Counted from the stretch's first letter, positions 1,132-21,171 are shown. The stretch: 32,000 bases of DNA from Candidatus Saccharimonadia bacterium (GCA_039738635.1 JBCLLN010000004.1:15404-47403), one strand, 5' to 3'. Notes: generated from the letters alone by a model not told the origin. Numbers and translations: made by a program.

Positions 1132-1147
1132 ATAATTATGCCTATTT

Positions 1148-1233: not shown

Positions 1234-1243
1234 GAGATTCATT

Positions 1244-1632: not shown

Positions 1633-1713
1633 ATAATTTACGCCAGACGCTTTTCATCTTCCCATATGATAGATTACTGATGTATACTTAGCCTGAACAT
1701 TAGTAAACACAAA

Positions 1714-4700
1714 ATGAGCGAACAATACCATCCAATACCTAAAGAGGCTCAGCACCATCTGGAGCAAATCCAGCACGATCCAACTCGTGAACATATAGCA
1801 GAGCATATCCAAAAGCTGCATCTTATAAAAAACTTACAGGAACAGCCGCGAACAGATGAAACTGCACAAGAAGTTGAGTTTGCTCCGGCTTTTGCGGGCG
1901 ATAGTGAACGCGTAAAACATCATATGAGTTCTATAGCTGAGCAGGCATCTGCAGCTCACGCTGAATTGTCATCGGGTCAAGACGCAGAGGTAAGCACCTC
2001 TGATATTTGGAGTCGCGTACTTGAGCGTCAGCTCACTTCTGCCACTGAAGCCAAGCAACGAGGAGATAGTGAAGCCGCAACGAGTTCGCTCGTTGATTAC
2101 TTAATCATTACTGGAATAATCTCATCGTCTCGAGGCGAAAGTTATGGCTATGAAAATTCTTCTGAGGCTCAAAAAGAAAAAGTTTCTAGAGTTTTGGACG
2201 AAATAATAGCTCGTGACTTAGCTCTAGAGTTAGTGGAAGCTGCCCATCAAAGCTACGGCCTGGTACATGTTGAAGCAAGTAGGTCTCAGGATTACGAATT
2301 TGATCTTTCTATGATTAAGTCACCTCCAAAAGTAGAGGTAACAAGCATTGCTCACACTATTGAAACGGTAAAACCACAATTAGAAATCATTACCAATAGA
2401 ACAGTTTCGGTAGATCCTGACGACCCTGCATTGGGTGAAACGCTTGTAGCTGAAGCTGTCCAGGAGCGCATCGAACAGCTTTCGCTAGAAGGTGCAGTAG
2501 CTACAGCAAAAGGTGTAGCTACTGCCGAACAATATGATGCAGAGCGTAAGCCTGACACAATAGACAATCTCACAAAACGAGCTCTTGCTGAGTTCTCCGA
2601 ACAGTCATCGGTGCGTCTCGATATGGCAGAACAACTGGTACGATTAAGTGAAGCAAATCCGTCGTTAAGTGACCCTTCAAAATATCAAAGAGAATTTCGG
2701 GCAATTCGTGCTATGAGAATTGTCAACTCTCATTACAGGGGCAACCAGCAAGAAATAGATCATGTAGATCAGGCTCTGGTTGGATTATGGGAGAGGGGCT
2801 TTAAAGACTTAGCTGGGAGGATACTAACTGCTGGTAACGAGATAGAAGAACGAGATGGCTATCCTGGCGGTGCTATCGGGCATATGGTGGGCTCCAAGCC
2901 AGAGCTAATGCAAGAGATACAGGCAGAAGTTCAACGTCGTCAGCAAGAGTGCCGGCAAAAACTAGCAGCCGTTTTAATTCCTCCCAAAGAGGATGCAGGT
3001 CAATCCTCAGGCTATTCTCATGAGCGTTCCGATGGTGAATCCATTATCCATAAAGTTATTGGAACACAAGACCCCGAAAGAGCCACTGAGATTGTGCTTG
3101 CATGGGCAAAGGATAATAACGCCGAAAAGATACTGTCCACACTGCGCCTAATGGATGACGACCCTAATGAAGGTTCTGGGCTTAATCTGATGCTTATACT
3201 CACAGGCAAAGAAAATCCTCTAATAGACTTAGATGAAGTTAGTAAAGTTATGGAGGCCACAACTGACCTTTCTCTACGCCACCATTTTCCAGAAACTACC
3301 ATACGGGATTCTGCACTGCTAGATAATAGCGAAGAGGGAGCAGACTTACGCGCAAGGGTGACAATGCTTCATGACGAATTTCCTTTAGACCTATTTGACA
3401 GCTACTTCATGCCACAAAAAATAAAATTCTTCGAAAGGGTATTCGAAAATAGCGACCCGCAGTTTGTTGATAATATTAAGCGCCTATTGGAAACTCCAGC
3501 CGTCAGTGGATTGCAGTCAGAGACCTTTACGGGGGCAAAGGATGTTATGTTGAAACTGCTGACTGGCGCTGTAGACGCAGAAGACACAGACCAATTCCTA
3601 GAAGAACAAAGAGGTTATTTACAATCACTTGAGTCAATGATGGCTCATCCACACTATGAGAAGCTAAAGCATCCGGATGAAGGCGAACTATATAATCCTT
3701 TCAACAATTTAGTTCTGAACTCAGTAACCACCGCCAGTAATCCAGCTGAAGGGATTAAAAATGTTGAAATGGTTTTTGATACTGATCTTACGAGGTCATT
3801 AAGAGCTCTCTATGAAGTAGCTCCGTCCGAAGCTGTTAGTGGGTTAGTGGCGGAAATCGCTGGGTCTTCAGATATAGCTACCTTAACCCAAGAATGGCAA
3901 GGACTGAGCGAGCAATTGAAGGCTGTGGCAGAACATCCGCTAATGGACATCTTGCGTCCTGGCGGGATGCTTCACAATATGGCTCCTGCAATTCTTAATG
4001 GCATTTTAGCCAACGAAAACAAAGTTGCTTTTTGCGAAAGCGTCTACAACTCCTTCACTAGACCACAACCTTTATGGAAAAGTCTATCTCGATTTACAGA
4101 ACTCCTGGTTGGCGAAAAGGTTGAGGCGCTTGGTGAAAAACAGCAGCATTTAGTTAAGGTTCTGCCATTTATGAGGCTCAGATTAGGAGTTTCACCTGAT
4201 AATGCTGGCCTGGACCAAATTGAAGGCTTCGAGCCCCATTCATTTTCTCAACTTACAGTAGAACAAAAACGTCTGATGACTACAGATCGGCTTGTTGGCT
4301 TATCAGATGAAGAAGTGACTGGGTTAGAAGCACTAACATTCGACAGACTTACCGACCAAGTCAAGCGAGCCTTATTCGCTTTTCAGCTTCAACAGACAGT
4401 CGAACAAAGTCGTGATAGCACCCAGAAAGAACAAGCCGATTCCCGTAATCAACAACTAGCTAAACAGCAAGTAGCAGTTATTCAGGCAGGCGATTTTCTA
4501 CACGGTACATCATTCGATTCTCTAACATCAATACTCCAAGATGGCAATGTGGCTGGTGAAGCACGTCGGGCTGCTTCAAGAGCCGACTCTTATCCCTACA
4601 ATGTTGACTTCGGCGTAATCAACGGAGCCGAGACCATTCAGGAGAAAATTGAAAGCACCATTAGCTTCCGAGGTTATGGTAAAGGTGGCCCTAAGGGTGA

Positions 4701-5700
4701 GGCTGGACAGATTATGCTGGTGTATAAGCGCAATCCCGATAGCTGGATGGCAGGCCAGGAAACCCAACCGGGCGAGCAACACGCCCTAATTTTTGGTGGT
4801 ATACCATCGACTGAAATAAGTGGTATGGTGCTGACTGATCCTTCAGCTACCCTGTCAGCTGTGAGCAGAACGGTAGTTGAAAATGGCTTTTATATACCTT
4901 TATATGACCGCCAAGGTAATATCCTGTTTAGTCCTGACGAATATAACCACATGAGAGACGATCTTAATATGGGTGTACAAATACCACCAGAAAACATTGT
5001 TGACAGTAGCATCAAGGCTGAAGACCAAAGAGGTATTAGTGAGGGTGGTCTTTACTTATTCCCAACAGAATCTGGCCCAGTTCGGTATTATGTTAAATTT
5101 GCCCAAAATCCTGACCATACATGGACTGAATACGCTGCCGATGAACTTTACAGGACGGCTGGTGTGGCAGTTCCTGACACAAAAGTCGTTATGGTGGAAG
5201 GCCGTTTGGGCAGAGCTTCCAGGTGGGTTGAGGAGGGGTCTGAGCTTCCGCCCGCCGAATCATCAACATTAGAAGATGGTGCAGCGATGGATATGTTACT
5301 AGCCAACTGGGATGTAGTCTTTAATTCTGCTAACACAATGACGGTCAATGGGAAAGTACTACGACCTGATTCGGGTAGTGCGCTTGATATTTGGGCAACG
5401 GGCGTTCCTAAATTAGAAGGAACATGGGTAGATGAGGTTGGAGAACTTAACGTGAGCAGTGATAGGACAAAACTATGGGAAGGCATGAGGCAGGAATATC
5501 CTGATTTAACAGACGAACAGCTTAGAACACAGGTAGGGCATATTCAGGAAAGATTAACTGATGATGTTATTGATAAGGTTTTTGATTCCATAAGACGGCC
5601 CCAACAAGCTCGCGATACTCTAAAGGCTACGCTTAAAGCTCGGCGAGATCACATGATTACAAAAGTCTTGGGGGCTGTACCGCCAACAGTGCTGGCATAA
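1714..5700 (+). CDS. Very large (1328 aa) multidomain protein with no signal peptide or TM helix; tentative ART-like and PI3/4-kinase-like C-terminal modules
   Basis: Uninterrupted 3987-nt ORF, with only short antisense shadow ORFs inside it. The N-terminal ~900 aa are acidic and look helical. FLHGTSFDSLTSILQDG starts at H930 (nt 4501). YYVKF has K1128. LLANWDVVFNSAN has D1200/N1204. RPDSGSAL has D1219. Confidence 0.85.
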   Translation: MSEQYHPIPKEAQHHLEQIQHDPTREHIAEHIQKLHLIKNLQEQPRTDETAQEVEFAPAFAGDSERVKHHMSSIAEQASAAHAELSSGQDAEVSTSDIWSRVLERQLTSATEAKQRGDSEAATSSLVDYLIITGIISSSRGESYGYENSSEAQKEKVSRVLDEIIARDLALELVEAAHQSYGLVHVEASRSQDYEFDLSMIKSPPKVEVTSIAHTIETVKPQLEIITNRTVSVDPDDPALGETLVAEAVQERIEQLSLEGAVATAKGVATAEQYDAERKPDTIDNLTKRALAEFSEQSSVRLDMAEQLVRLSEANPSLSDPSKYQREFRAIRAMRIVNSHYRGNQQEIDHVDQALVGLWERGFKDLAGRILTAGNEIEERDGYPGGAIGHMVGSKPELMQEIQAEVQRRQQECRQKLAAVLIPPKEDAGQSSGYSHERSDGESIIHKVIGTQDPERATEIVLAWAKDNNAEKILSTLRLMDDDPNEGSGLNLMLILTGKENPLIDLDEVSKVMEATTDLSLRHHFPETTIRDSALLDNSEEGADLRARVTMLHDEFPLDLFDSYFMPQKIKFFERVFENSDPQFVDNIKRLLETPAVSGLQSETFTGAKDVMLKLLTGAVDAEDTDQFLEEQRGYLQSLESMMAHPHYEKLKHPDEGELYNPFNNLVLNSVTTASNPAEGIKNVEMVFDTDLTRSLRALYEVAPSEAVSGLVAEIAGSSDIATLTQEWQGLSEQLKAVAEHPLMDILRPGGMLHNMAPAILNGILANENKVAFCESVYNSFTRPQPLWKSLSRFTELLVGEKVEALGEKQQHLVKVLPFMRLRLGVSPDNAGLDQIEGFEPHSFSQLTVEQKRLMTTDRLVGLSDEEVTGLEALTFDRLTDQVKRALFAFQLQQTVEQSRDSTQKEQADSRNQQLAKQQVAVIQAGDFLHGTSFDSLTSILQDGNVAGEARRAASRADSYPYNVDFGVINGAETIQEKIESTISFRGYGKGGPKGEAGQIMLVYKRNPDSWMAGQETQPGEQHALIFGGIPSTEISGMVLTDPSATLSAVSRTVVENGFYIPLYDRQGNILFSPDEYNHMRDDLNMGVQIPPENIVDSSIKAEDQRGISEGGLYLFPTESGPVRYYVKFAQNPDHTWTEYAADELYRTAGVAVPDTKVVMVEGRLGRASRWVEEGSELPPAESSTLEDGAAMDMLLANWDVVFNSANTMTVNGKVLRPDSGSALDIWATGVPKLEGTWVDEVGELNVSSDRTKLWEGMRQEYPDLTDEQLRTQVGHIQERLTDDVIDKVFDSIRRPQQARDTLKATLKARRDHMITKVLGAVPPTVLA

Positions 5701-5808
5701 ACAAATCATAAACTGAAACTAATAATCTCCTAGGCTTAGTAGTTACTCATATAATGCTACAGGCTATTGTAGACAACACTGTCTGTCTAGAATAAGTGGT
5801 ACACACCA

Positions 5809-5816
5809 TGTATAAT
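5809..5816 (+). promoter_or_regulatory. Candidate extended -10 promoter element TGTATAAT for the downstream hydrolase gene
   Basis: TGnTATAAT-type element lies 32 nt upstream of ATG 5848. AAAAGG lies 9 nt before the ATG. A similar TGTATACT at 1681-1688 precedes the giant gene. Confidence 0.3.
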
Positions 5817-5847
5817 GTTAGGTGTAATATGCATAAAAGGAATAAAC

Positions 5848-7212
5848 ATGCCTAAATCAAAAAAAATACAGCGTAACTCTAAGAAGAATCAATCAACCCT
5901 TTTGATAACTAAGCTTAAAAACCTGTCTAAGCTTAGTAGAGGTTTACTATTTGTAGCAATATTTGCGGTCGTTGGTGGTTCCGTAATATTGCTGGCGCAA
6001 GCCCTTAATAACAATAAGTTGCAGCTTTCGTCAGCCAACGCCGCATTATATTTTCACTTAATAAAAGACACCCCCGAATGGGAGAAAAACAGCCTTCCCC
6101 TTATAGGTAAACCACGATTAGTAATAACACGCGCGCAGGGTACAGAGGATGCAGAGCGATTTGCCATAAAAAAAATTCATGAGACCGGCGGTCTGGCTTA
6201 CCGCTATTTGCAATATTTCTGGTTCCCGGACAACAAAGCCGATCCGGATACTGGCCTCAACATCTCACAAAACCCCGACTGGATATATTGCAGGCAAGGC
6301 AACACTCCATTGTTTGGCGTCAGATTTGAAGGAGTCAAGTCGTACTTTCTTGACTTAAACGAACGAGCTGCCCGTGATAATATGATTGCTTTCTATAAAA
6401 AAATTAAAGATTGGGGTTACGACGGCGTATTTGTTGATATCGGACGCGGGGCCAGAAGTGGCAGAACCGACTATCCATTGGCAGACCAACTTATACCCGG
6501 CGAACCCTCAACCTGCACTAAAGATCCAATCGTTGCTAACCGTAGTTTTGCCGATAGCTATATAGAAACAATTACCCAGGCCAAAGCTTTGGGATTAAAA
6601 ACAATTCTTAACTATGACCGGGCTCATGTTCCAGGCAAAAAATTACCTGCTAATTGGTATAATTATTTAGACTGGACACTTGACGAAAGCGTTAATAACA
6701 GCAATATCCCCTGGCAAGAAATATACGACAGCAACAGATACGCCGAGCTTGATGGTCAAGGCAAAACCATTCAGCTAATTAAAGAAGACATAAAAGATGC
6801 CAATGGCAAGCCAATTACAAATAAAGACGACGTTTATTTTCGCTCTAGCCGGGCTCGATTATTTAGTTCTCCAATAGCCGTTAATTCGCTAAATTCCAGA
6901 CTTTACCCAGAACTTACTAGCGCCACACTCAATGGCCCGTTTGTGGCCGGACCTTTTACGATTAGTTGTGATGACACTGCTACAGGCCAATGCTTATGGG
7001 CCAGACGTTACTCGGGCGGATTGGTTATTGTTAATAACACTAACCAAAATAAGTCGACTAAAAATATCTGGCTTGGCACACAAAGCTGCCGAACAGTGAA
7101 AAACCTCTATAGCGGACAGCTCCTAGACGGTGGCGCTTGCATTACATCGCTTGATTTGTCTATTCCCGCTAAATCCGGTCGCATTTTCCTATATAATGTC
7201 CTAAATTTATGA
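5848..7212 (+). CDS. Secreted or membrane-anchored putative glycoside hydrolase, GH114-like TIM barrel (endo-alpha-1,4-polygalactosaminidase-like)
   Basis: ORF 5815..7212, with ATG 5848 preferred (MPKSKK..., purine-rich RBS). N-terminal TM/signal anchor LLFVAIFAVVGGSVILLA. YFLDLNERAARDNMIAFYKKIKDWGYDGVFVDIGRG resembles the GH114/GHL motif ...GFDGVFLD.... Confidence 0.4.
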   Translation: MPKSKKIQRNSKKNQSTLLITKLKNLSKLSRGLLFVAIFAVVGGSVILLAQALNNNKLQLSSANAALYFHLIKDTPEWEKNSLPLIGKPRLVITRAQGTEDAERFAIKKIHETGGLAYRYLQYFWFPDNKADPDTGLNISQNPDWIYCRQGNTPLFGVRFEGVKSYFLDLNERAARDNMIAFYKKIKDWGYDGVFVDIGRGARSGRTDYPLADQLIPGEPSTCTKDPIVANRSFADSYIETITQAKALGLKTILNYDRAHVPGKKLPANWYNYLDWTLDESVNNSNIPWQEIYDSNRYAELDGQGKTIQLIKEDIKDANGKPITNKDDVYFRSSRARLFSSPIAVNSLNSRLYPELTSATLNGPFVAGPFTISCDDTATGQCLWARRYSGGLVIVNNTNQNKSTKNIWLGTQSCRTVKNLYSGQLLDGGACITSLDLSIPAKSGRIFLYNVLNL

Positions 7213-7600
7213 GGACATTGATTCCTTGGAAACACCCTGGCTCAACCCTGGCTCAATATTTTGATGATAGCCTACAATCTCTTTGCAATCCAAACACTTG
7301 GCAGTATACATTCGAAAAAATCCGAACTGATTTCGCCCAAAACTGACTCGGCGAGCAGAATGCCCCCAGACCCCCATTCGGCTGAGCTCACGGCTGAAGC
7401 CATTGCACCCGCCAACAGAAGTGATCCTTTTGGATTGGACGATTTTCCTTCAACTTCGTTCAGGCCTTCGGCTCTGAGGCTCAGGCTCGAAGAGATGATG
7501 AGCGTAATCGAACCACAAGTTTTTCTTTGCTTTGTACTCAGTAGCTTCATGAGGAGGAGGGGCGGCAAATTCAGAAACCTAAAAAAAACTGTACAAATAG

Positions 7601-8185
7601 TTATTTTTTAAGATGATATGTTGCGTTAAAAAATACTATTAAAAAGCGGCTATATCTTGCTTCAACAAGCTTCAATCCGAATTTATTAAATACTGCTCTC
7701 CATTGTTTATCATTTTTATTGGTATGAGGATGACCAATAAATTCTAGATTTACCAAACTATCAAAAAAATAGGTTAAATATTTGTGAAATATGTTTGTAT
7801 AGATATCTTCGATGATGATGATTCTTTTTGATACCCTTCTTGCTTCTCTAATTATTTTCTCAGGATGTGGTGTATGGTGTAGAACCGTCACTATTAAGGC
7901 GAGATCAAATTTATTATCGTTGAAAGGAATTTTATTGCCATCGTATAAAATAGGTTTAATATCATCAACAAAGCTTAAATCTTGAATATCAAGAGGGACA
8001 ATATTATAGCCCTCTCCTAGTAAAATTTCAGAAACATTACAAGTACCCGCGCCGATATCTAAAATGTGATCCTCTTTATTTAAAAATGGTTTAATTTTAC
8101 TAATAAGATCATTAGCTCTTGCTCTTCCAAGTTTGTATATAATGTCCCGAAAAAATTTATTCTTTTGTAAAAATTTTACGAGCAT
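7601..8185 (-). CDS. Class I SAM-dependent methyltransferase (small-molecule type)
   Basis: Motif I ILDIGAGTCNV. Acidic post-I residue in VPLDI. Motif LALIVTVLHH. No DNA-MTase DPPY or PCQ motifs. The gene is visibly AT-rich. Confidence 0.8.
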   Translation of the reverse strand: MLVKFLQKNKFFRDIIYKLGRARANDLISKIKPFLNKEDHILDIGAGTCNVSEILLGEGYNIVPLDIQDLSFVDDIKPILYDGNKIPFNDNKFDLALIVTVLHHTPHPEKIIREARRVSKRIIIIEDIYTNIFHKYLTYFFDSLVNLEFIGHPHTNKNDKQWRAVFNKFGLKLVEARYSRFLIVFFNATYHLKK

Positions 8186-8204
8186 AGTTTTATTTCGATA
8201 ATTC

Positions 8205-8396
8205 CTAAATAGAGGTATTTAATGCTTTGGCTATTTTAGCAATTATGTGTACAGGCGGTTTTGTAACAACACCACTCTCAATTTTTGCAAGGGTAGTGTA
8301 TTTCACACCGGACTTCTGGGCAAAATCTTCTTGCGAAAGCCCTAGCTTATTCCGGTGTCTTTTGGTGTTTTCTACAATGTTATTTCCTGTTGACAT
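8205..8396 (-). CDS. XRE-family helix-turn-helix transcriptional regulator (63 aa)
   Basis: LGLSQEDFAQKSGVKYTTLAKIESG is a canonical HTH_3 pattern. It lies 19 nt upstream of the methyltransferase on the same strand. Confidence 0.8.
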   Translation of the reverse strand: MSTGNNIVENTKRHRNKLGLSQEDFAQKSGVKYTTLAKIESGVVTKPPVHIIAKIAKALNTSI

Positions 8397-8516
8397 ACTT
8401 TCATTAATTAGACTATCAAAAATTATGATTTATTTCAATCTCTTAAAGAAAAGCCCGCTTTTGGCCTTACTGAATCCAAAACGGCTTGAAATTTCCCCAA
8501 AAACAGCGGGCCAGAT

Positions 8517-8629
8517 GGCTTGTCAGTCCGAAGCCTTGACTAGAAACACAAAGAAATAATGGATGAGCTAAAATATGAACTCGCAAATATGTAAAAAGTC
8601 TATCTGGAAAAGGCCAGGCCTTTTAAACT
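8517..8629. repeat. Intergenic repeat copy 1 (long form, most diverged)
   Basis: GGCTTGTCAGTCCGAAGCCTTGAC-TAGAAACACAAAG-AAATA-ATGGATGAGCTAAAATATGAACTCGCAAATATGTAA...GGAAAAGGCCAGGCCTTTTAAAC. Hairpin AAAAGGCC/GGCCTTTT at 8608-8624. It ends 45 nt downstream of the stop of minus-strand gene 8674..9024. Confidence 0.85.
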
Positions 8630-8673
8630 TCCTCTGGATCAATCACTTATCAGCTTATGCTTTAACTTTTTGT

Positions 8674-9024
8674 TTAAGGCTGTGGGCCAACAAATCCTTC
8701 CCACCCACCTTCCGCATCAGCTATATTTGCATGTCTGTCGGCCAGTCTATCGCCTTCAGTCATATGGGCTTTTTCTGTCGTGGGATATAATTCATGAAAT
8801 ACTTCGTTTATGTCACGGGGTTGGTCGCCATAAGCTATTGTTACTAATGCACGCGTGAAGTGGCTACCTACCGTATCTCGCATCATCGCATCCCATTTAT
8901 CGGGCGTATAACCGAGCGAAAGGAGTTTAGCTCTAGCATCGTACGGACTCACCGTAAAGTCATCAGGATTTTCGTGAGGTTCTTGTTCGAAAGACTTGTT
9001 TGTGGGAATGTTAGTCATGGTCAT
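8674..9024 (-). CDS. Hypothetical acidic protein (116 aa)
   Basis: ORF bounded by two repeat copies. I recognise no motif. Confidence 0.5.
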   Translation of the reverse strand: MTMTNIPTNKSFEQEPHENPDDFTVSPYDARAKLLSLGYTPDKWDAMMRDTVGSHFTRALVTIAYGDQPRDINEVFHELYPTTEKAHMTEGDRLADRHANIADAEGGWEGFVGPQP

Positions 9025-9108
9025 TATATTCTAGATTTATATAATACCATTCTTATGCTTGTTTTGTCAGTTCCTGAGTGAATTGTTTTTCCTGTTTTCT
9101 ATGGTTTT

Positions 9109-9125
9109 CCAGGGTGTCTCCCTGG
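9109..9125. repeat. Small hairpin motif CCAGGGTGTCTCCCTGG (inverted copy of 1244-1259)
   Basis: Exact reverse complement of the 1244-1259 motif plus one base. It directly abuts repeat copy 2. Confidence 0.7.
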
Positions 9126-9128
9126 CAT

Positions 9129-9212
9129 GATAATGGATGAACTAAAGTATAAACTAGCAAATCTGTAAAACCGCCATCTGGAAAAGGCCAGGCCTTTTAA
9201 ATCTTTTAAATC
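9129..9212. repeat. Intergenic repeat copy 2 (distal half only)
   Basis: ATAATGGATGAACTAAAGTATAAACTAGCAAATCTGTAAAACCGCCATCTGGAAAAGGCCAGGCCTTTTAAATC. Hairpin at 9182-9198. It ends 42 nt downstream of the stop of 9254..10984. Confidence 0.9.
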
Positions 9213-9253
9213 TCTATTGCTATATGAATGAGAAAGGCAAAGGTCTTTACAGC

Positions 9254-10984
9254 TTAAAACCACCTATTACTGCTTAGAATTCGCATTAAAGTAGGTAGCC
9301 TAATCTCGAACACCTGATTATCGGTTACTGGTAAATCTATTATCATTCTTGGGTCATTTGGTAGCCTATAGTAGTTTACTTCTGTATTCTGGCTTACATT
9401 TATGACTTCTGAATATTGATTATAGCTAATTGGCAACTTTACAGCGCTAGGTTCTTTACAGCTAATATTGAGTCTTAGCAATAGCGTATCAGTAGACGAC
9501 CTAGCATTGTCTATTATCTGACATTTACCTTGCCAGCCATTAGACTTTTCGTAGTCCAAATACAAATTCTCATACTGGAACCATGTCGTTCTGGCGTTAA
9601 CTTGCTTACCATTTTCATACACTCTAGGCAAAAACTCACCATGATAAAGTATCGCGCTACCAAATCCTCTATATCTATCAGTATCTGGTGCACTGCTCAG
9701 CTGTATATCTGACACAAAAGCAATACTAGGCTTATGCCAGACTGGTGCCGCTGCAACGAATGTAGTAACCCAAATAACAAGAAAAATATACAAAGTTGAT
9801 CGGCTTTTTACTCTAGATAGTAAATACGCTAACGAGATAATTGAAAAGGGCACCATAAATGTCATTAGCCGAAAAGGAAACTGAAGATATTCCAGTGGCT
9901 TTATTAAGTGATAAATGGGTAGTGATATTTTTAACTGCAGTACAAAGAATACAATTAACATAGATGCCAGGAATATTACTACCTTTTTACTAAAGAATTG
10001 CGCCCTACTCATAAACATATGCTTCTTTTTCTTAAATACAAAGTAGAGAAGCAAACAGGCTATCGCCGACAACCAAATACCAATGTCAAGCTGAATGTTT
10101 GCTGCTGGAGTAGCGTCATGTAAAGAAAATTTGGGTAAAATATTCCTGACCAAAGGTACAAAATTATTACTAGCTAAAAAGCTTCCCTCTAGAATCTTGC
10201 TAGGATCATAATCAGCTAAAAATAAATACTCAGCAAGCAATAGTGGAGCAAGCAACAACAGTAAAGATACGCCCGACAAGATTACTGGCTTAATTGTTCG
10301 TCGCCACGACTGGTAATCACCTATAGAATATATTAGGTATGCGCCTAACAACGGCACCAGAGACATTAGCCCAATTACATTGTGGCAGTAAACAGTAACC
10401 AGCAAAATCACAACTATACTATAAGAAAACTTTTTATCAATCAACAGCTTAAGACACCACCAAATCACCCAAGGAATCATCATCATTGCCACAAATTCAG
10501 AAAATGCACCACGCCATAACCAATTTATAAAGCTATAGTTAGCCAACAGTAGTAGCTGCGAGCTAGCTAAAATAATACTCTTTTTGTCGGTAAGCTTTTG
10601 CAAACAAAAACGCATGCCATATACCCCCACAGCCATAAAACTTGCTAATCCTACGAATAAAGCTAGCTTCATGCTGCCAAAAAGTATGAAAATAATTGAA
10701 GTAACATAGTAGAAAGCTCTGTGATAAAAAAGCAACATTGGGGTTCCGTAGCCAAAAGCGTCGCCAGATGACCAAACAGGAATTAAATCACCGTACCTAA
10801 TATGGTCAGCGTAAGCTTGGATTTTGTAAGTCACCACTAGCCCATCGTCAGTATTCTCTGGCCATCCCGAATATGCTATTACCCAAAAAAGACAAAAACA
10901 GATAGTTACCGCAGTAACCAATGCAAAAATTGCATTAAACCTACGCCTTAGTAAGTACTGCATTCGCAAGCCATAAATCATCAT
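9254..10984 (-). CDS. Polytopic integral membrane protein (576 aa); a GT-C-type glycosyltransferase (ArnT/PMT/YfhO-like) is a guess
   Basis: More than 10 hydrophobic helices followed by a soluble C-terminal domain. The start overlaps the stop of the peptidase fragment (ATGA). Confidence 0.55.
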   Translation of the reverse strand: MMIYGLRMQYLLRRRFNAIFALVTAVTICFCLFWVIAYSGWPENTDDGLVVTYKIQAYADHIRYGDLIPVWSSGDAFGYGTPMLLFYHRAFYYVTSIIFILFGSMKLALFVGLASFMAVGVYGMRFCLQKLTDKKSIILASSQLLLLANYSFINWLWRGAFSEFVAMMMIPWVIWWCLKLLIDKKFSYSIVVILLVTVYCHNVIGLMSLVPLLGAYLIYSIGDYQSWRRTIKPVILSGVSLLLLLAPLLLAEYLFLADYDPSKILEGSFLASNNFVPLVRNILPKFSLHDATPAANIQLDIGIWLSAIACLLLYFVFKKKKHMFMSRAQFFSKKVVIFLASMLIVFFVLQLKISLPIYHLIKPLEYLQFPFRLMTFMVPFSIISLAYLLSRVKSRSTLYIFLVIWVTTFVAAAPVWHKPSIAFVSDIQLSSAPDTDRYRGFGSAILYHGEFLPRVYENGKQVNARTTWFQYENLYLDYEKSNGWQGKCQIIDNARSSTDTLLLRLNISCKEPSAVKLPISYNQYSEVINVSQNTEVNYYRLPNDPRMIIDLPVTDNQVFEIRLPTLMRILSSNRWF

Positions 10985-11178
10985 CTTGCTGCCCTAAAAG
11001 TGCCAACATACTTGGGGGAAAACTCCAGCTGGGCAGCTATTTTGGCCATAATAGCACTGCCTATAGGGTAATTTTTACTAGATTCCAGATAGCCACGCAA
11101 TACTATAACAAATATGACCACCACCAGAGCAGCCAATAGCATTTTTATGATAATTATTTTATTGAGTTTCATATTCAT
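10981..11178 (-). pseudogene. Truncated paralog of the 5' end (TM anchor, ~65 codons) of the M28 peptidase gene
   Basis: MNMKLNKIIIIKMLLAALVVVIFVIVLRGYLESSKNYPIGSAIMAKIAAQLEFSPKYVG aligns with MNIKLNKITIIKLLLAMLAVVIFAIVLRGYLESSKNYPIGDAIMAKIADQLEFGPRYVG of 190..1131. The catalytic domain is absent. Confidence 0.75.
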
Positions 11179-11195
11179 ATAATTATACCCTACTA

Positions 11196-11322
11196 GGCTT
11201 GCCAGTCCGAAGTCTTGACGAAGGAGGTTGACTAGAAACACAAAGCAATCATTAATGAGCTAAAGTATAAACTAGCAAATCTGTAAAACCGCCATCTGGA
11301 AAAGGCCAGACCTTTTAAATCT
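11196..11322. repeat. Intergenic repeat copy 3 (full-length form)
   Basis: GGCTTGCCAGTCCGAAGTCTTGACGAAGGAGGTTGAC-TAGAAACACAAAG-...ATTAATGAGCTAAAGTATAAACTAGCAAATCTGTAAAACCGCCATCTGGAAAAGGCCAGACCTTTTAAATC. The mini-ORF ATG is lost (ATT AAT) and the hairpin is imperfect. It ends 19 nt downstream of the stop of 11341..12204. Confidence 0.9.
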
Positions 11323-11340
11323 AAGTCTTGATTCGGCTTC

Positions 11341-12204
11341 TTACTTTGCCTCAAAATCAAAGTTAACCGCATCGTTCGGGTCAAGCCAGGCTTCGCTAAT
11401 AGTAGCCACAACAGAAAAAGGTGTCAGCTCCTTATCGCTACGAAGTTCAGTCAGCCAGAATATTACTGCACCTCGTTGACCAAAAATAGCAATCTTCGGC
11501 TCTGGCGATATGCCTGACGGCATGCCAGCGCTCATCATAGTCTCCACGTAGACACGGGCGCCACTATCATCAAGGGCAATTTTAAATTTCTGCGTTACAT
11601 CTATGAGTTGTCCTTTGTTAAGCTGTACTATTTCAACCATTGCTCGCCCATAGTCTATCTGCTGGGCAGGAACTTGAACTTTATCATACTGTGTAGGAGT
11701 ACCATCGTTAAACTGTGCCGTCCAAGACCTCGCCAGATTAAACAGACCGTAATAGCCCGTCTGTTGTAGTTCGCTAAGTGGCAACTCTGCAAACCACATC
11801 AATGCGGACCGACCATCGTATAGCTTCAGGGGTAATTGAGTTAGTTGGCCATTATCAGTTTTAAGCACTTGCGCGCCCGAAAACGAAACACCTTGGCGTG
11901 ATACACCAGTATAATCTGTGAATGTAACCTTCTGTGGATTATTCGCTTCCTCCCACGTCATCTTTTTTGTATCAATAATTGCCGATACACTCGGTTCTTC
12001 TTGGTCGACATTGATCTGCATCAAGTCATCAAATGTGGCTTTTCCATTGTAATGAGCAGCTTGAGGCAACAGCACGTTTCTACTCGCTGTGTAGGGCTCA
12101 ATCGCGTTACCAGCAGCCACAAGCGTGATAATATCGATGGCAGCAACGCCACCATCAAATTTGATAATTGGGTCTTGAAATGAATCCTTTGTTTGATATT
12201 GCAT
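11341..12204 (-). CDS. Hypothetical protein (287 aa), no signal peptide
   Basis: Clean ORF between two repeat copies. I recognise no motif. Confidence 0.6.
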   Translation of the reverse strand: MQYQTKDSFQDPIIKFDGGVAAIDIITLVAAGNAIEPYTASRNVLLPQAAHYNGKATFDDLMQINVDQEEPSVSAIIDTKKMTWEEANNPQKVTFTDYTGVSRQGVSFSGAQVLKTDNGQLTQLPLKLYDGRSALMWFAELPLSELQQTGYYGLFNLARSWTAQFNDGTPTQYDKVQVPAQQIDYGRAMVEIVQLNKGQLIDVTQKFKIALDDSGARVYVETMMSAGMPSGISPEPKIAIFGQRGAVIFWLTELRSDKELTPFSVVATISEAWLDPNDAVNFDFEAK

Positions 12205-12245
12205 ATTTGTATAATACTATAAAGACAAGCTAAATAAAACTTCAA

Positions 12246-12289
12246 GGATGAGGGCATCCATCTGGAAAAGGCCAGGCCTTTTAAACTTC
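12246..12289. repeat. Intergenic repeat copy 4 (short form with internal deletion)
   Basis: GGATGAGGGCATCCATCTGGAAAAGGCCAGGCCTTTTAAACTTC keeps the GGATGAG... start and the CCATCTGG + hairpin end. It ends 3 nt downstream of the doc stop. Confidence 0.8.
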
Positions 12290-12291
12290 AG

Positions 12292-12675
12292 TTAATTGCT
12301 ATGTGCTTCAAGCCATGACGCGATTTCAGAAATATCTAGGTGGTCTGTTGAAACCTTAACGGTGAAATTCTCTAACTCCTTGGGGTTAGCAATTATATTG
12401 ATACCGTTCCTAGATAAAAAAATACTACAAATAGTTAAGGCGGTCCGTTTGTTACCATCAATAAACGGGTGATCCCCAATCAAATTCCTTAAATACACCG
12501 CTGCTTTTTCATATACTGTTACGTATTGTTGCTTTCCTAAGACCTCTTGTTTTGGTGCTTCAACAACTGATTTTAGGCGGCCTTCGTCGCGAACACCATG
12601 TGAGCCACCAAAATCCTCAACAACCTGGAAGTGCAACCGTAATACCTCTTCTATATCCAAGAACCTGACAGTCAT
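12292..12675 (-). CDS. doc: Doc (death-on-curing) Fic-family toxin
   Basis: Fic/Doc motif HPFIDGNKRTAL (HxFx[DN]GNKR). 127 aa. ATGA overlap with the upstream antitoxin. Confidence 0.9.
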   Translation of the reverse strand: MTVRFLDIEEVLRLHFQVVEDFGGSHGVRDEGRLKSVVEAPKQEVLGKQQYVTVYEKAAVYLRNLIGDHPFIDGNKRTALTICSIFLSRNGINIIANPKELENFTVKVSTDHLDISEIASWLEAHSN

Positions 12676-12890
12676 CTACTAGCTAAATTTTTAAGAGTTT
12701 GGCCGTATTTCTCTACAAATTTATCGTATTCTCGTAAAAGTTTTGTGTGGCTTTCGGGTTCATTCACAAGTTCAACTCTTATTTTTAGTGTGTCTCCACG
12801 CTTAGCGCCTAGTCGAGTAAGGTCTTTTTTGGACAATGTTACTCCTTCACTAGAACCAATTTGAATAAGTTTTTGGGTAGTTTCAATCAT
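12672..12890 (-). CDS. AbrB/MazE/SpoVT-fold antitoxin partner of Doc (72 aa)
   Basis: MIETTQKLIQIGSSEGVTLSKKDLTRLGAKRGDTLKIRVEL is a swapped-hairpin AbrB-like pattern. I moved the start from 13043 to ATG 12890, which sits 7 nt after a consensus -10 element. Confidence 0.75.
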   Translation of the reverse strand: MIETTQKLIQIGSSEGVTLSKKDLTRLGAKRGDTLKIRVELVNEPESHTKLLREYDKFVEKYGQTLKNLASR

Positions 12891-12897
12891 ATAATAC

Positions 12898-12925
12898 ATT
12901 ATAAGCATATTATAATATTTGTCAA
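12898..12925 (-). promoter_or_regulatory. Near-consensus sigma70-type promoter for the TA operon, implying a leaderless mRNA
   Basis: The minus strand reads TTGACA-16 nt-TATAAT-7 nt-ATG. The spacer contains the 12-nt palindrome ATATTATAATAT, a candidate operator. Confidence 0.6.
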
Positions 12926-13128
12926 CCCTCTCCCTTCCTCTTCTTGGTATAGTGGAAAGGTGGACGGGTCTAAAAATCATCAATTGGCGGAGAGGTATCC
13001 TGCGTTTATAGAACTTCGGACTACCATTTTCTCCTCGTTCCAACGTACATACTTCACACTTTTTTAAGAGGAGTAGCTCTAGAGAATAATCCGTTAGCGT
13101 GAAGCAGCTACTGACTCAACAAACCAGA

Positions 13129-13210
13129 AATAATGGATGAGCTAAAGTATAAACTAGCAAATCTGTAAAACCGCCATCTGGAAAAGGCCAGGCCTTTGAA
13201 ATCTTTTAAA
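13129..13210. repeat. Intergenic repeat copy 5 (distal half)
   Basis: AATAATGGATGAGCTAAAGTATAAACTAGCAAATCTGTAAAACCGCCATCTGGAAAAGGCCAGGCCTTTGAAATCTTTTAAA. It ends 7 nt downstream of the stop of 13217..13930. Confidence 0.9.
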
Positions 13211-13216
13211 TAATGG

Positions 13217-13930
13217 CTATTTAACAAAAAGTTGAAAAAAAGTTTCAACGAGTTTATTGGCCTCGGGAGATTCGCGTAGTTCACGCTCGGCACGCTCAAT
13301 GTCATTGTTTGAGATATGATACTCTTCGGCGTAATGACGGATACGGAACATGGTGCCGGCTGGATCGAGTTCCGGATGGAAGGTAAGAGCGTAAATAGGT
13401 TCGCCGGGAAAGGTCCAGGCTTGATTAACACTTCGTTCAGATGATGCTAAACGCACGGCACCAAGGGGAAGATCTGTAAAGTGGTCTTTGTGTCCGAGTT
13501 GAGCGTCGAATTGCATTGGTAAAGTAGAAAACAATGGATCCGTAATTCCAGCTTCTGTTTTTGTAATTAAAAAGGTTCCAACTTCGGCACGGTTTTCATC
13601 ATTTACTAGGGTTCCATTAAAAGCTAACGTCATTAATTGCCCGCCAAAACAAATTCCCAACGTTGGAATTTTTCTTTCTCTTGCTTTCTTGAGCACTATA
13701 AATACAGATTGAGCGATTTCTGGAATGTCACCACGAGAAAGTAAATACTCACCAGATCCACCAAGTACTAAAGCCTCAATACCGCTAAGTGCTTCTGTGG
13801 TTAGTGAGGCACGAGTTGTATTTAGGCGAATAAAATTAGAGACTGAAAGCTTAGAGTATTTTACTAGTTGATCAAACTCATTGTCGGCGATTTCTAAATT
13901 TTGTCTGAATTGGAGGAAAAGGATTTTCAT
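13217..13930 (-). CDS. Class I (type 1) glutamine amidotransferase domain protein
   Basis: Nucleophile elbow GICFGGQLM and His-Glu pair in LTFHPELD. 237 aa. Confidence 0.8.
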   Translation of the reverse strand: MKILFLQFRQNLEIADNEFDQLVKYSKLSVSNFIRLNTTRASLTTEALSGIEALVLGGSGEYLLSRGDIPEIAQSVFIVLKKARERKIPTLGICFGGQLMTLAFNGTLVNDENRAEVGTFLITKTEAGITDPLFSTLPMQFDAQLGHKDHFTDLPLGAVRLASSERSVNQAWTFPGEPIYALTFHPELDPAGTMFRIRHYAEEYHISNNDIERAERELRESPEANKLVETFFQLFVK

Positions 13931-13973
13931 GCCGAAATTATAGCATTCTTTAAATAAAAATACCCGCGCCTAG

Positions 13974-14284
13974 TGGAGAGTGAGGGATAGTTCGACAGGC
14001 TCACTATATAAACAGCCCTTCGACTACGCTTCTTCGACTACGCTCAGAACCTTCGCTCAGGGCATTAGCCTCCCTTCTACTCTATGGCTGAAAGCCCTAC
14101 GATATACTCAGGGCTATGGCCATGAGCGAACGAAGTGAGTCGAATGGCGGAGAGGGAGGGATAGTTCGACAAGCTCACTATTTATCCCGCACCCGTCTCT
14201 TCATTGGACTCTCCAGCCTCACGCCAATGGTGAGCCTGTCGAATCCATGGCGGAGAGGGAGGGATGGTTCGACAGGCTCACCAT
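13974..14284 (-). repeat. Three pseudo-copies of the tRNA-Ser 3' end, each fused to TTCGACAGGCTCAC
   Basis: TGGCGGAGAGGGAGGGAT (the genuine tRNA 3' end is at 14616-14633) recurs at 14248 and 14145, and in degenerate form (TGGAGAGTGAGGGAT) at 13974. Each copy continues [AG]GTTCGACA[GA]GCTCAC[CT]AT. Copy C (14229-14282) forms a 15-bp perfect inverted repeat GGTGAGCCTGTCGAA / TTCGACAGGCTCACC. Confidence 0.85.
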
Positions 14285-14315
14285 AATTTTCACACAACAA
14301 CATCCTTCAGCACGC

Positions 14316-14591
14316 TCAGGATTTTGATCGGCTTAACTTTTTGAGGAGCTCAACATCACCAACAATTAATGCCTTTTTCTTAGCTTTTGACCAGCCTTTA
14401 AGCTGTTTTTCCCGCTTTGCAGCATCAACTCGTTTAGTAAACTTTTCAGAATACACTATCTGAACTTCTCCATAGCGTTTAGTATAAGACGATTGATGTT
14501 TTTGATGCTGCAAAAGCCTAGTTTCTAAGTTGGTGGTCAAACCAACGTAGAAAAAGGCATTATCACATTCTAAAATATATATGTTATACAT
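14316..14591 (-). CDS. GIY-YIG nuclease-family protein (UPF0213-like, 91 aa)
   Basis: YILECDNAFFYVGLTTNLETRLLQH matches the GIY-(x10)-YVG...R..H pattern. The track ORF 14316..14699 reads through the tRNA, so I moved the start to ATG 14591. Confidence 0.8.
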   Translation of the reverse strand: MYNIYILECDNAFFYVGLTTNLETRLLQHQKHQSSYTKRYGEVQIVYSEKFTKRVDAAKREKQLKGWSKAKKKALIVGDVELLKKLSRSKS

Positions 14592-14615
14592 AGCAATCCT
14601 GAGCCTGTCGAAGGA

Positions 14616-14705
14616 TGGCGGAGAGGGAGGGATTCGAACCCTCGATGGAGTTGCCCCCATACTACTTTTCGAGAGTAGCGCCTTCAACCACTCGGCCACC
14701 TCTCC
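14616..14705 (-). tRNA. tRNA-Ser (anticodon CGA), 90 nt with encoded CCA
   Basis: The minus strand reads GGAGAGGTGGCCGAGTGGTTGAAGGCGCTACTCTCGAAAAGTAGTATGGGGGCAACTCCATCGAGGGTTCGAATCCCTCCCTCTCCGCCA. 7-bp acceptor stem GGAGAGG/CCTCTCC. Anticodon stem CTACT/AGTAG with loop CTCGAAA. Long variable arm. T-arm GAGGG-TTCGAAT-CCCTC. Confidence 0.92.
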
Positions 14706-21147: not shown

Positions 21148-21171
21148 TTGGTTATATGCCTTAGTAATAGT

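What the first reader, a model, noticed from the sequence alone, without database searches (positions are those of the whole stretch)
8517..13210. Cassette-like array: five consecutive minus-strand transcription units, each followed by a copy of a conserved 45-125 nt repeat carrying a hairpin and a conserved 11-codon mini-ORF
Copies lie at 8517-8629, 9129-9212, 11196-11322, 12246-12289 and 13129-13210. All are in the same orientation. Each ends 3-45 nt after the stop of a minus-strand unit: the 116-aa gene, the 576-aa membrane protein gene, the 287-aa gene, the doc TA pair and the GATase gene.

Each copy contains AAAAGGCC-A-GGCCTTTT. On the minus strand this reads as a terminator-type hairpin followed by TTTTCC.

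On the plus strand three copies encode ATG GAT GAG/GAA CTA AAG/AAA TAT AAA/GAA CTA/CTC GCA AAT CTG/ATG TAA, giving MDELKY[KE]LAN[LM]*. Several differences are synonymous. Copy 3 has lost the ATG, and copy 4 has deleted the ORF body.

Unrelated genes of one orientation, separated by a conserved structured repeat and including a TA module, is the organisation of integron cassette arrays or CALINs and of REP/MITE-punctuated operons. I could not recognise attC R/L boxes by eye, and no integrase is present. The most conservative reading is a family of terminator-bearing intergenic repeats.
Basis: partly seen in the sequence, partly recalled or inferred. Interest (0 to 1): 0.65.

Follow-up and report, generated by a model that had tools for sequence, protein, structure and literature searches.

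The report
Repeat-bounded gene modules beside tRNA-Ser
A short conserved DNA repeat marks the joints between small self-contained gene modules in a strain-variable island next to a serine tRNA gene of a Saccharibacteria-like bacterium; a close relative differs by whole modules cut at these repeats, so the repeat looks like a cassette-style recombination joint, but it is not an integron attC site.

Summary
Five same-orientation copies of a repeat ("H1") lie 3-45 nt after five minus-strand units. Four copies are about 82 nt long; the fifth keeps only a 33-nt core.

H1 is not an attC site: it has no whole-site fold and no R boxes. It is a poor terminator on the gene strand: a 7-bp stem of about -7 kcal/mol with no free U tail. 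The 11-codon ORF has no support (3 synonymous and 4 non-synonymous changes, p=0.17, no ribosome-binding site).

The new result comes from comparison with relatives. In two distant relatives the M28 peptidase gene, tRNA-Ser(CGA) and the FAD oxidoreductase gene are adjacent. The window holds 13.5 kb between the tRNA 3' end and the peptidase gene; a close relative (about 91% identical in core genes) holds 1.9 kb.

That relative has only two H1 copies and lacks three blocks. Four of the six block ends lie in or within 10 nt of the H1 core. The two shared modules are three times less diverged than the flanking core genes.

I conclude that H1 is the joint of a modular, cassette-like island linked to a tRNA gene. 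Whether a site-specific recombinase or RecA acts there is unresolved. No recombinase gene is in the window, and only two genomes carry H1.

The parts
1132..14615 (.). Whole strain-variable island between the M28 peptidase start codon and the 3' end of tRNA-Ser(CGA)
   Evidence: In L006 and L008 the peptidase gene, tRNA-Ser(CGA) and the FAD gene are adjacent. The close relative L005 has 1.9 kb at this place.
8517..8637 (+). H1 copy 1: left extension 8517-8555, mini-ORF 8559-8594, invariant core 8602-8627, palindrome 8608-8624
   Evidence: The right end of window-only block A lies 9 nt past the palindrome.
9126..9212 (+). H1 copy 2: mini-ORF 9133-9168, palindrome 9182-9198. An H2 hairpin abuts it at 9109-9125.
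   Evidence: The left end of window-only block B lies in its core.
11196..11329 (+). H1 copy 3: extension shared with copy 1 and with the peptidase upstream region, degenerate mini-ORF 11251-11286 (no ATG), palindrome 11300-11316 with 1 mismatch
12256..12291 (+). H1 copy 4: core only, palindrome 12266-12282
   Evidence: nhmmer E 2.5e-8. The right end of block B lies in it.
13127..13211 (+). H1 copy 5: mini-ORF 13133-13168, palindrome 13182-13198 (last T changed to G)
   Evidence: The window and the relative diverge immediately after GGCCTTT.
8674..9024 (-). Module: 116-aa protein of unknown function, shared with the relative (97.4% nt)
   Evidence: Promoter-like site at 9070-9041.
9254..11172 (-). 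Module absent from the relative: 63-aa ORF (a duplicate of the peptidase N-terminus, 10981-11172) overlapping the start of the 576-aa membrane protein gene (9254-10984)
   Evidence: (family D2, 188 nt, 88%)
11341..12204 (-). Module absent from the relative: 287-aa protein of unknown function
   Evidence: Homologues at 35-64% identity sit in other contexts without H1.
12292..12893 (-). Module: Doc/Fic toxin (12292-12675) and antitoxin (12672-12893), with a perfect TTGACA-16-TATAAT match at 12925-12898
   Evidence: The same module lies between tRNA-Gln 3'-end repeats in L013.
13217..13930 (-). Module absent from the relative: class-I glutamine amidotransferase
1265..8631 (.). Window-only block A: 1328-aa and 465-aa proteins (+ strand), SAM methyltransferase and XRE-type HTH protein (- strand), ending in H1 copy 1
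13971..14284 (+). Three fragments of the tRNA-Ser 3' end (13971, 14145, 14248), in the orientation of the tRNA gene
   Evidence: (family D6)
14616..14705 (-). tRNA-Ser(CGA). Its 3' end is the right boundary of the island.
1244..1260 (+). H2 hairpin CCAGGGAGACACCCTG at the left end of block A. Other copies lie at 1391, 7224 and 9109(-).

Best explanation
H1 is the joint sequence of a modular genomic island inserted at the 3' end of tRNA-Ser(CGA). Each module is a self-contained unit with its own promoter-like site and one or two genes. All five array modules face the same way as the tRNA gene, and each ends in an H1 copy.

Whole modules are gained, lost or replaced by recombination inside a core of about 27 nt, ATCTGG-AAAAGGCC-A-GGCCTTTT-AAA. 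The left arm of this core is identical in all seven known copies. Close strains therefore differ by entire modules.

Shown: strain-specific blocks end in the core, the shared modules are younger than the flanking core genes, and the locus is a tRNA-linked insertion hotspot.

Inferred: the crossover is made by a recombinase supplied from elsewhere in the genome. I favour a site-specific (tyrosine-type) enzyme acting on the palindromic core. Each incoming circular module would carry its own H1, which would explain why unrelated genes share the same 3' flank. RecA acting on the repeats could produce the same deletions.

The 45-nt 'mini-ORF' segment is probably part of the extended site or of the shared 5' edge of the modules, not a gene.
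For: 1. Block structure. blastn of the window against the close relative L005 gives shared blocks 6-1264, 8632-9205, 12255-13197 and 14615 onward. Window-only blocks are 1265-8631, 9206-12254 and 13198-14614.

2. Junctions. The relative's single copy between the 114-aa and Doc genes has the left flank of copy 2 and the right flank of copy 4. The crossover therefore lies within the shared 28 nt. At copy 5 the two genomes diverge directly after GGCCTTT. Block A ends 9 nt past the palindrome of copy 1. H1 cores cover about 1% of the island, yet four of six block ends lie in or beside them.

3. Age of the shared modules. Four-fold degenerate sites differ at 8/129 (6.2%) in the shared modules and at 91/494 (18.4%) in the flanking core genes (Fisher p=4e-4). 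dS is 0.05-0.09 against 0.20-0.26. This indicates recent exchange.

4. Ancestral state. L006 and L008 have the peptidase gene, tRNA-Ser(CGA) and the FAD gene adjacent. Three tRNA 3'-end fragments lie beside the tRNA gene.

5. Unrelated genes share the same 3' flank. The GATase and 576-aa genes are both followed by ATTTAAAAGATTT(A/C)AAAGGCC, read on the gene strand.

6. Local distribution. A profile nhmmer search finds only the five window copies and two copies in the relative, all inside the island.

7. Independent context for one module. In a third genome the same Doc module, from its promoter to its stop codon, lies between direct repeats of a tRNA-Gln 3' end. It is therefore a discrete unit bracketed by att-like repeats in two settings.

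8. Composition. G+C is lower at 7-11 kb (0.36-0.39) than in the flanks (0.44-0.47).
Against: 1. No recombinase gene was found in the 32-kb window or in the part of the relative that was read.

2. Only two genomes carry H1. An exact 22-mer scan found nothing related in 185,579 species genomes, JGI metagenomes or IMG/VR. The polarity of each event (gain or loss) is therefore unknown.

3. RecA-mediated deletion between direct repeats gives the same junctions B and C.

4. The left end of block A lies in a different hairpin (H2) with only microhomology.

5. The GATase module has H1 on one side only.

6. The relative's contig is a palindromic assembly artefact, so only about 25 kb of it is unique sequence.
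Confidence: 0.5

Rival explanations
1. H1 is an ordinary 3'-end element, such as a weak bidirectional terminator, an insulator or an mRNA-stabilising hairpin. It was copied by local segmental duplication and gene conversion. The differences between strains are RecA-mediated deletions between these direct repeats, plus imports by homologous recombination after DNA uptake. No dedicated recombination system is involved.
For: Every copy lies just after a stop codon. The hairpin scores as terminator-like on the + strand at copies 2 and 5. Copies 2, 3 and 5 are 87-98% identical, as expected from concerted evolution. The duplicated 5' end of the peptidase gene at 11002-11236 shows that segmental duplication does happen here. 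Junctions B and C are what recombination between direct repeats would leave.
Against: On the gene (minus) strand the stem is about -7 kcal/mol, no better than shuffled sequence, and it is followed by CCAGAUGG rather than a U tract. The same genome uses a 12-bp GC-rich stem plus a T run at 20640-20680. Copy 4 shares only 33 nt with the other copies, which is near the lower limit for RecA. Homologous recombination cannot explain how five unrelated genes each acquired the same 3' flank. In L013 the Doc module lacks H1 altogether.
Confidence: 0.3
2. H1 is a REP- or MITE-like selfish repeat that inserts itself into intergenic DNA, mobilised by a RAYT (IS200/IS605-type) or other transposase encoded elsewhere in the genome.
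For: H1 contains a short perfect palindrome with conserved flanks in intergenic DNA. A second palindromic family, H2, occurs in both orientations in both genomes.
Against: All H1 copies have one orientation and lie within 4.7 kb. None was found in the other roughly 46 kb sampled (27 kb of window and about 19 kb of unique relative sequence). H1 has no terminal inverted repeats, no target-site duplications and no inverted doublets. No transposase gene is in the window.
Confidence: 0.08
3. The array is a true integron cassette array without an integrase (a CALIN), and H1 is a divergent attC site.
For: The genes are unrelated, face the same way and are each followed by a conserved 80-125-nt repeat. 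One module is a toxin-antitoxin pair. Gene content varies between strains.
Against: Single-stranded DNA folds of four copies (1, 2, 3 and 5) on both strands show only the local 7-bp hairpin, with z-scores from -0.9 to +0.7. No RYYYAAC or GTTRRRY box is present in any copy on either strand. The modules have their own promoter-like sites. No IntI gene is present.
Confidence: 0.03
4. The conserved 45-nt segment is a functional gene: a translated 11-residue peptide on the + strand, or a small RNA.
For: The ORF is intact in 5 of 7 copies across the two genomes. No change falls on a second codon position.
Against: There are only 7 distinct substitutions: 3 synonymous and 4 non-synonymous, one of which destroys the start codon. 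The expected synonymous fraction is 0.21, giving p=0.17. No Shine-Dalgarno-like sequence lies within 15 nt upstream. There is no Rfam match at gathering or E-value thresholds and no significant fold. Copy 4 lacks the segment entirely.
Confidence: 0.05

Closest known systems
Integron cassette arrays and CALINs (clusters of attC sites lacking an integrase); chromosomal integrons with homogeneous attC repeats such as the Vibrio cholerae repeats (Cury et al. 2016, PMC4889954; attC structure, PMC2727003)
   Same: Unrelated genes face the same way, each is followed by a conserved repeat of about 80-125 nt, a toxin-antitoxin module is included, whole cassettes differ between close strains, and no recombinase gene lies inside the cassettes.
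   Different: H1 has no whole-site imperfect palindrome, no R''/R' boxes and no bulged-hairpin fold. The modules carry their own promoters. The array sits at a tRNA 3' end rather than at an attI/intI platform. Only two genomes are known to carry it.
Acinetobacter pdif (dif) modules moved by XerC/XerD (PMC13141974, PMC6449649)
   Same: Small accessory modules, including toxin-antitoxin pairs, are bounded by short recombination sites. They are deleted, replaced and shuffled between close replicons by a recombinase encoded elsewhere.
   Different: A pdif site is an 11-nt XerC arm, a 6-bp spacer and an 11-nt XerD arm (for example ATTTCGTATAA-CGTGTA-TTATGTTAATT). Modules occur in two configurations, C and D, and the sites are inversely oriented. 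The system is found on plasmids. H1 copies are all direct, have an unrelated sequence (a 17-bp perfect palindrome) and are chromosomal.
tRNA-linked genomic islands built by repeated integration, including arrays of integrase-less cargo such as Prochlorococcus tycheposons (bioRxiv 10.1101/2020.12.28.424599; features recalled from my own knowledge, paper not read here)
   Same: The island is inserted exactly at a tRNA 3' end, partial direct repeats of the tRNA 3' end are present, the cargo varies between strains, and G+C is lower than in the flanks.
   Different: The joints inside the array are H1 copies, not tRNA fragments. No integrase gene was seen. The modules are only 0.6-2 kb long.
REP/BIME and REPIN intergenic palindromes (own knowledge)
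   Same: Short palindromes lie just after stop codons and act as hotspots for rearrangement. The H2 family in this window fits this description better than H1 does.
   Different: H1 is not dispersed, occurs in one orientation only, and carries about 60 nt of conserved non-palindromic flank.

Membership tests
Integron attC / CALIN | The site folds as single-stranded DNA into one long imperfect hairpin that pairs R''-L'' with L'-R' | tested here: not met
   DNA folds of four copies (1, 2, 3 and 5) on both strands show only a local 7-bp stem, with z-scores from -0.9 to +0.7.
Integron attC / CALIN | Conserved R'' (RYYYAAC) and R' (GTTRRRY) boxes at the two ends of the site | tested here: not met
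   Neither motif occurs in any of the five copies on either strand. No paired boxes lie 40-130 nt apart anywhere in 8300-13400.
Integron attC / CALIN | Match to the attC covariance model of IntegronFinder or HattCI | not testable with these tools
   The model is not available here. Rfam searches found nothing.
Integron (complete) | An IntI-type tyrosine recombinase gene and an attI site next to the array | tested here: not met
   No recombinase domain was found in any window ORF with Pfam, NCBIfam or PADLOC. The rest of the genome was not available.
Cassette array in the general sense | Gene content between repeats differs between close strains, with breakpoints at the repeats | tested here: met
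   Blocks 9206-12254 and 13198-14614 are absent from or replaced in L005, and their ends lie in the H1 core.
tRNA-linked genomic island | Insertion at the 3' end of a tRNA gene that is unoccupied in relatives | tested here: met
   L006 and L008 have the peptidase start within about 20 nt of the tRNA-Ser(CGA) 3' end. The window has 13.5 kb at that place.
tRNA-linked genomic island | Direct repeats of the tRNA 3' end | tested here: met
   The 18-mer TGGCGGAGAGGGAGGGAT occurs at 14145 and 14248 exactly and at 13971 with 3 mismatches, in addition to the gene itself. Chance expectation is 0.01.
tRNA-linked genomic island | An integrase gene in the island | tested here: not met
   None was found in the window.
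REP / REPIN / MITE | Many dispersed copies across the genome, often as inverted pairs; terminal inverted repeats and target-site duplications for MITEs | tested here: not met
   The five window copies and two relative copies are all direct and all inside the island. nhmmer finds no others in the window, L005-L009 or L013. This is inconclusive for the unsampled rest of the genome.
Intrinsic (Rho-independent) terminator | A stable GC-rich stem followed by a free U tract on the transcribed strand | tested here: not met
   On the minus strand the fold is -7 to -9 kcal/mol including flanks, z is about 0, and the tail is CCAGAUGG. The consensus scan flags H1 only on the + strand. A canonical terminator for comparison lies at 20640-20680.
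Translated small ORF | A ribosome-binding site and an excess of synonymous change across copies | tested here: inconclusive
   Three synonymous and four non-synonymous changes, p=0.17. No Shine-Dalgarno-like sequence. The start codon is lost in copy 3 and the ORF is absent from copy 4. There are too few copies for a firm test.
Xer/dif-type site (IMEX elements, pdif modules) | A 28-nt site made of an 11-nt XerC arm, a 6-bp spacer and an 11-nt XerD arm of the ...ATAA-N6-TTATG... type | tested here: not met
   The H1 core ATCTGGAAAAGGCCAGGCCTTTTAAATCT lacks the ATAA/TTAT inner arms listed. The dif site of this lineage is unknown, so a divergent Xer site cannot be excluded.

The most novel reading that the evidence does not exclude
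H1 is the attachment site of a previously undescribed cassette-type site-specific recombination system in Saccharibacteria (CPR). It would be functionally analogous to integrons or pdif modules, but with a double-stranded palindromic core instead of a folded attC site. A recombinase encoded elsewhere would stack promoter-bearing single-gene modules at a tRNA-linked platform.
Probability: 0.25. Interest if true: 0.8.

Novelty: new variant of a known kind. Interest (0 to 1): 0.5.

Why it matters
Saccharibacteria and other CPR bacteria have tiny genomes, and how they acquire accessory genes is poorly understood. If a short non-attC site lets them stack and swap single-gene modules at a tRNA gene, that would be a compact gene-capture mechanism in a major uncultured lineage. 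It would also be a second structural solution to the task that integrons perform. If H1 is only a repeated 3'-end element, the locus is still a clean example of a tRNA-linked hotspot where strain differences are produced by recombination at 30-nt repeats. The two readings can be separated with data that already exist: the reads of the source metagenome and the complete genomes of this lineage.

Tried and rejected
1. Exact scans for the 22-nt core ATCTGGAAAAGGCCAGRCCTTT. The scan of GTDB species genomes gave 2 unrelated single hits, in Ferruginibacter and Planctomycetota. JGI metagenomes gave 1 hit inside what looks like coding sequence. IMG/VR gave 0. A mini-ORF pattern in IMG/VR also gave 0.

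2. The source contig (60,262 nt) could not be retrieved. Exact look-ups of window proteins returned nothing.

3. Viral relatives of the 287-aa and 116-aa proteins: none. blastn of 8400-13300 against the plasmid and phage collections: no match.

4. Rfam at gathering threshold and at E<=5: only the tRNA and chance-level hits.

5. A chimeric protein query combined the 116-aa protein, the 287-aa protein and peptides read across the repeat, to catch spurious ORFs called over H1 in other genomes. Only 287-aa homologues came back. The search also missed P0126, which is 97% identical to part of the query, so this negative result carries no weight.

6. Contexts of 287-aa homologues. These have a conserved 152-aa neighbour, IS fragments or a ParE/Phd pair nearby, and no H1. 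L009 has no analogous junction repeat.

7. Walking along the relative's contig for more copies or an integrase showed instead that the contig is a mirror-image artefact.

8. TTCCAGATRG is enriched in the window (10 matches against 0.14 expected). The sites outside H1 lie in coding sequence without hairpins, so I set this aside. A weak H1-like hit at 22755-22822 scores no better than the best of 500 shuffles and is not conserved in the relative.

9. I considered DNA-uptake sequences, an operator for the neighbouring XRE-type HTH protein (the relative keeps H1 but lacks that gene), CRISPR and iterons. I rejected all of them on distribution and spacing.

Full report
**What is there**

The window is a low-G+C (about 0.36-0.48) stretch of a Saccharibacteria-like genome. 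It encodes type IV secretion pilins, PrgI and a VirB4/TraG-type ATPase. The nearest named homologue of its FAD oxidoreductase is from 'Candidatus Saccharibacteria'.

Between 8.5 and 13.2 kb lie five copies of one repeat, which I call H1. Four copies share an 82-nt unit (8556, 9130, 11248, 13130). All five share a 33-nt core; the fifth copy is at 12257. The 18-mer GGAAAAGGCCAGGCCTTT occurs five times on the + strand against 0.02 expected by chance.

All copies point the same way. Each lies 3-45 nt after the stop codon of a minus-strand unit:
- a 116-aa protein of unknown function;
- a 576-aa membrane protein gene preceded by a 63-aa ORF;
- a 287-aa protein of unknown function;
- a Doc/Fic toxin with its antitoxin;
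- a class-I glutamine amidotransferase.

Only three copies carry the perfect palindrome. The 'TTTT' is part of the stem, not a tail.

**What H1 is not**

- *Not an attC site.* Folded as single-stranded DNA on either strand, the units form only the local 7-bp hairpin, and their energies match those of shuffled sequence (z from -0.9 to +0.7). No copy holds an RYYYAAC or GTTRRRY box. Rfam gives nothing.
- *Not a convincing terminator for the genes it follows.* On the minus strand the stem is about -7 kcal/mol and is followed by CCAGAUGG. The consensus scan flags the hairpin only on the + strand. The same genome has a textbook terminator at 20640-20680, with a 12-bp GC-rich stem and a T run.
- *No support for the 11-codon ORF.* Across seven copies in two genomes there are seven distinct substitutions. 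Three are synonymous and four are non-synonymous, including loss of the start codon in copy 3. The expected synonymous fraction is 0.21, giving p=0.17. No ribosome-binding site is present, and copy 4 lacks the ORF entirely.
- *Not dispersed.* A profile nhmmer search of the window and of six related loci finds only the five window copies and two copies in the close relative.

**The comparison that explains the locus**

The window's proteins are in the protein collection, but its own contig could not be fetched. A close relative could: GCA_039738655.1, contig JBCLLM010000001.1 (loci L004, L005 and L012).

blastn gives these shared blocks:
- 6-1264 (91% identical);
- 8632-9205 (97.4%);
- 12255-13197 (97.0%);
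- 14615 onward (about 91%).

The window-only blocks are A (1265-8631), B (9206-12254) and C (13198-14614).

The relative has only two H1 copies. The junctions read as follows:
- *Block B.* The relative's copy between the 114-aa gene and Doc has the left flank of window copy 2 and the right flank of window copy 4. Block B holds the 576-aa operon, copy 3 and the 287-aa gene. It therefore begins and ends inside the shared 28 nt CCATCTGGAAAAGGCCAGGCCTTTTAAA.
- *Block C.* At copy 5 the two genomes are identical up to GGCCTTT and then diverge completely, as far as the tRNA 3' end. The window has 1.4 kb there (GATase, three tRNA fragments and a GIY-YIG gene). The relative has an unrelated 309 nt. This is a replacement, not a simple deletion.
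- *Block A.* It ends 9 nt past the palindrome of copy 1. Its other end lies in a different hairpin, H2.

H1 cores cover about 1% of the island, yet four of six block ends lie in or beside them.

**The setting is a tRNA-linked island**

In two more distant relatives (L006 and L008, 66-68% protein identity) the M28 peptidase gene, tRNA-Ser(CGA) and the FAD gene are adjacent. The peptidase start lies within about 20 nt of the tRNA 3' end.

Everything between 1132 and 14615 in the window (13.5 kb) therefore sits at the classical island insertion point. The close relative has 1.9 kb there. Three fragments of the tRNA 3' end lie beside the gene. G+C is lowest at 7-11 kb.

**The shared modules are younger than their surroundings**

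At four-fold degenerate sites, the 116-aa, Doc and antitoxin genes differ at 8/129 positions. The peptidase, FAD, CMAS and Hsp20 genes differ at 91/494 (Fisher p=4e-4). dS is 0.05-0.09 against 0.20-0.26. The modules, or the tract that holds them, were exchanged after the two lineages split.

**The modules are discrete units**

Each has a promoter-like site between the preceding H1 copy and its own start codon. The Doc pair has a perfect TTGACA-16-TATAAT match.

In a third genome (L013) the Doc module is 84% identical from its -35 box to its stop codon and no further. There it lies between a 27-nt fragment of the tRNA-Gln 3' end and the complete tRNA-Gln gene, with no H1. The same module is thus bracketed by direct repeats in two different settings.

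Homologues of the 287-aa protein lie in other contexts without H1.

The unrelated GATase and 576-aa genes share the same 20-nt flank on the gene side of the hairpin. Four modules share the 45-nt 'mini-ORF' segment on the other side.

**Most likely mechanism**

H1 is the joint at which modules are added, removed or replaced.

Shown:
- the block ends lie at the core;
- the shared modules are younger than the flanks;
- the locus is a tRNA-linked hotspot;
- H1 is confined to the island in the sequence sampled.

Inferred: the enzyme. I favour a site-specific recombinase encoded elsewhere, for four reasons:
- unrelated genes each carry the same flanks, as expected if every incoming circular module brings its own site;
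- copy 4 keeps only the core yet still served as a junction;
- the left arm ATCTGG-AAAAG is invariant in all seven copies, while the outer right arm varies with the neighbouring module;
- the core has the layout of a recombinase core site, with two arms around a central GCCAGGC.

RecA acting on the direct repeats would give the same deletion products and cannot be excluded. No recombinase gene is present in the window.

**Comparison with known systems**

- *Integron cassette arrays.* The organisation resembles them, especially chromosomal integrons with homogeneous attC repeats. The two sequence and structure features that define attC were tested and failed, and the modules are not promoterless.
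- *Acinetobacter pdif modules.* The functional resemblance is small modules, including toxin-antitoxin pairs, that are swapped at short sites by a recombinase encoded elsewhere. H1 has neither the 11-6-11 XerC/XerD layout nor the inversely oriented sites of pdif.
- *tRNA-linked islands built by repeated integration.* The placement and the tRNA fragments match, but the internal joints are not tRNA-derived.

I therefore rate H1 as a new variant of a known kind, not as a member of any of these families.

**Limits**

- Only two genomes carry H1.
- The relative's contig is a mirror-image assembly artefact, so only about 25 kb of it is unique.
- The direction of each event (gain or loss) is not known.
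- One end of block A is an ordinary microhomology junction.

Noticed in passing
window 1244-1260, 1391-1407, 7224-7240, 9109-9125(-); L005 5563, 7803, 8291(-): A second palindromic repeat family, H2, has the form (A)TTCATT-CCAGGGAGACACCCTGG-ATCA(A). It occurs in both orientations. Its RNA hairpin is -10.8 kcal/mol with z=-3.1. One copy lies outside the island in the relative. The left end of window-only block A falls inside an H2 copy. H2 looks more REP-like than H1.
   Followed up: partly
window 13971-14007, 14145-14181, 14248-14284, and 14316-14594(-): Three fragments of the tRNA-Ser 3' end (TGGCGGAGAGGGAGGGAT) are each followed by TTCGACAGGCTCAC. An inverted copy, GAGCCTGTCGAA, precedes fragment 3 and the real tRNA gene. 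A 92-aa GIY-YIG nuclease-domain ORF sits between fragment 3 and the tRNA gene. This could be remnants of serial integration at the tRNA, or a small mobile element that targets the tRNA flank.
   Followed up: partly
window 955-1237 and 11002-11236: The first 63 codons of the M28 peptidase gene and its upstream region are duplicated (88% identical) in front of the 576-aa gene. The duplicate forms a 63-aa ORF that overlaps the start of the 576-aa gene by 4 nt. The 'extension' of H1 copies 1 and 3 (GGCTTGYCAGTCCGAAGYCTTGAC) is the same sequence as the peptidase upstream region.
   Followed up: partly
L012 (contig JBCLLM010000001.1, 50,883 nt): The relative's contig is a perfect inverted duplication about its midpoint (about 25.4 kb), with gene order mirrored on each side. 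This is almost certainly a fold-back assembly artefact in a public MAG.
   Followed up: yes
L013 2709-3468 (GCA_046595225.1): The Doc/antitoxin module (84% nt identity to the window, from promoter to stop codon only) lies between a 27-nt fragment of the tRNA-Gln 3' end and the intact tRNA-Gln gene. It forms a 660-nt 'mini-island' with no integrase.
   Followed up: partly
window 20541-20725 versus L005 15275-16621: A 448-aa solute-binding protein gene lies between Hsp20 and the pilin genes in L005, L006 and L007 but is missing from the window. The window has a strong canonical terminator at 20640-20680 at that place.
   Followed up: no
window 20725-22694(-): Four tandem paralogous type IV secretion pilin genes share a 34-nt repeat (family D5). 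They are far more diverged between the two close genomes (74-84% or not alignable) than the neighbouring genes.
   Followed up: no
window 1539-1636: A purine-rich tandem repeat (TTGAAAGAAAAGAT...) lies upstream of the 1328-aa gene. Several tandem TTGAC-containing direct repeats lie at 1160-1237.
   Followed up: no
window 22755-22822: An intergenic palindrome AGAGGAC-A-GTCCTCT is followed by TCCAGATAG and preceded by AACTGGCAAATCAGTAAA. This weakly resembles H1 (nhmmer E 0.007-0.017), but it scores no better than the best of 500 shuffles and the CCAGAT part is absent from the relative.
   Followed up: yes
(tool behaviour): A concatenated protein query returned homologues of its 287-aa part but not P0126, which is 97% identical to its first 116 residues. 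Negative results from the word-indexed protein search should not be read as absence.
   Followed up: no
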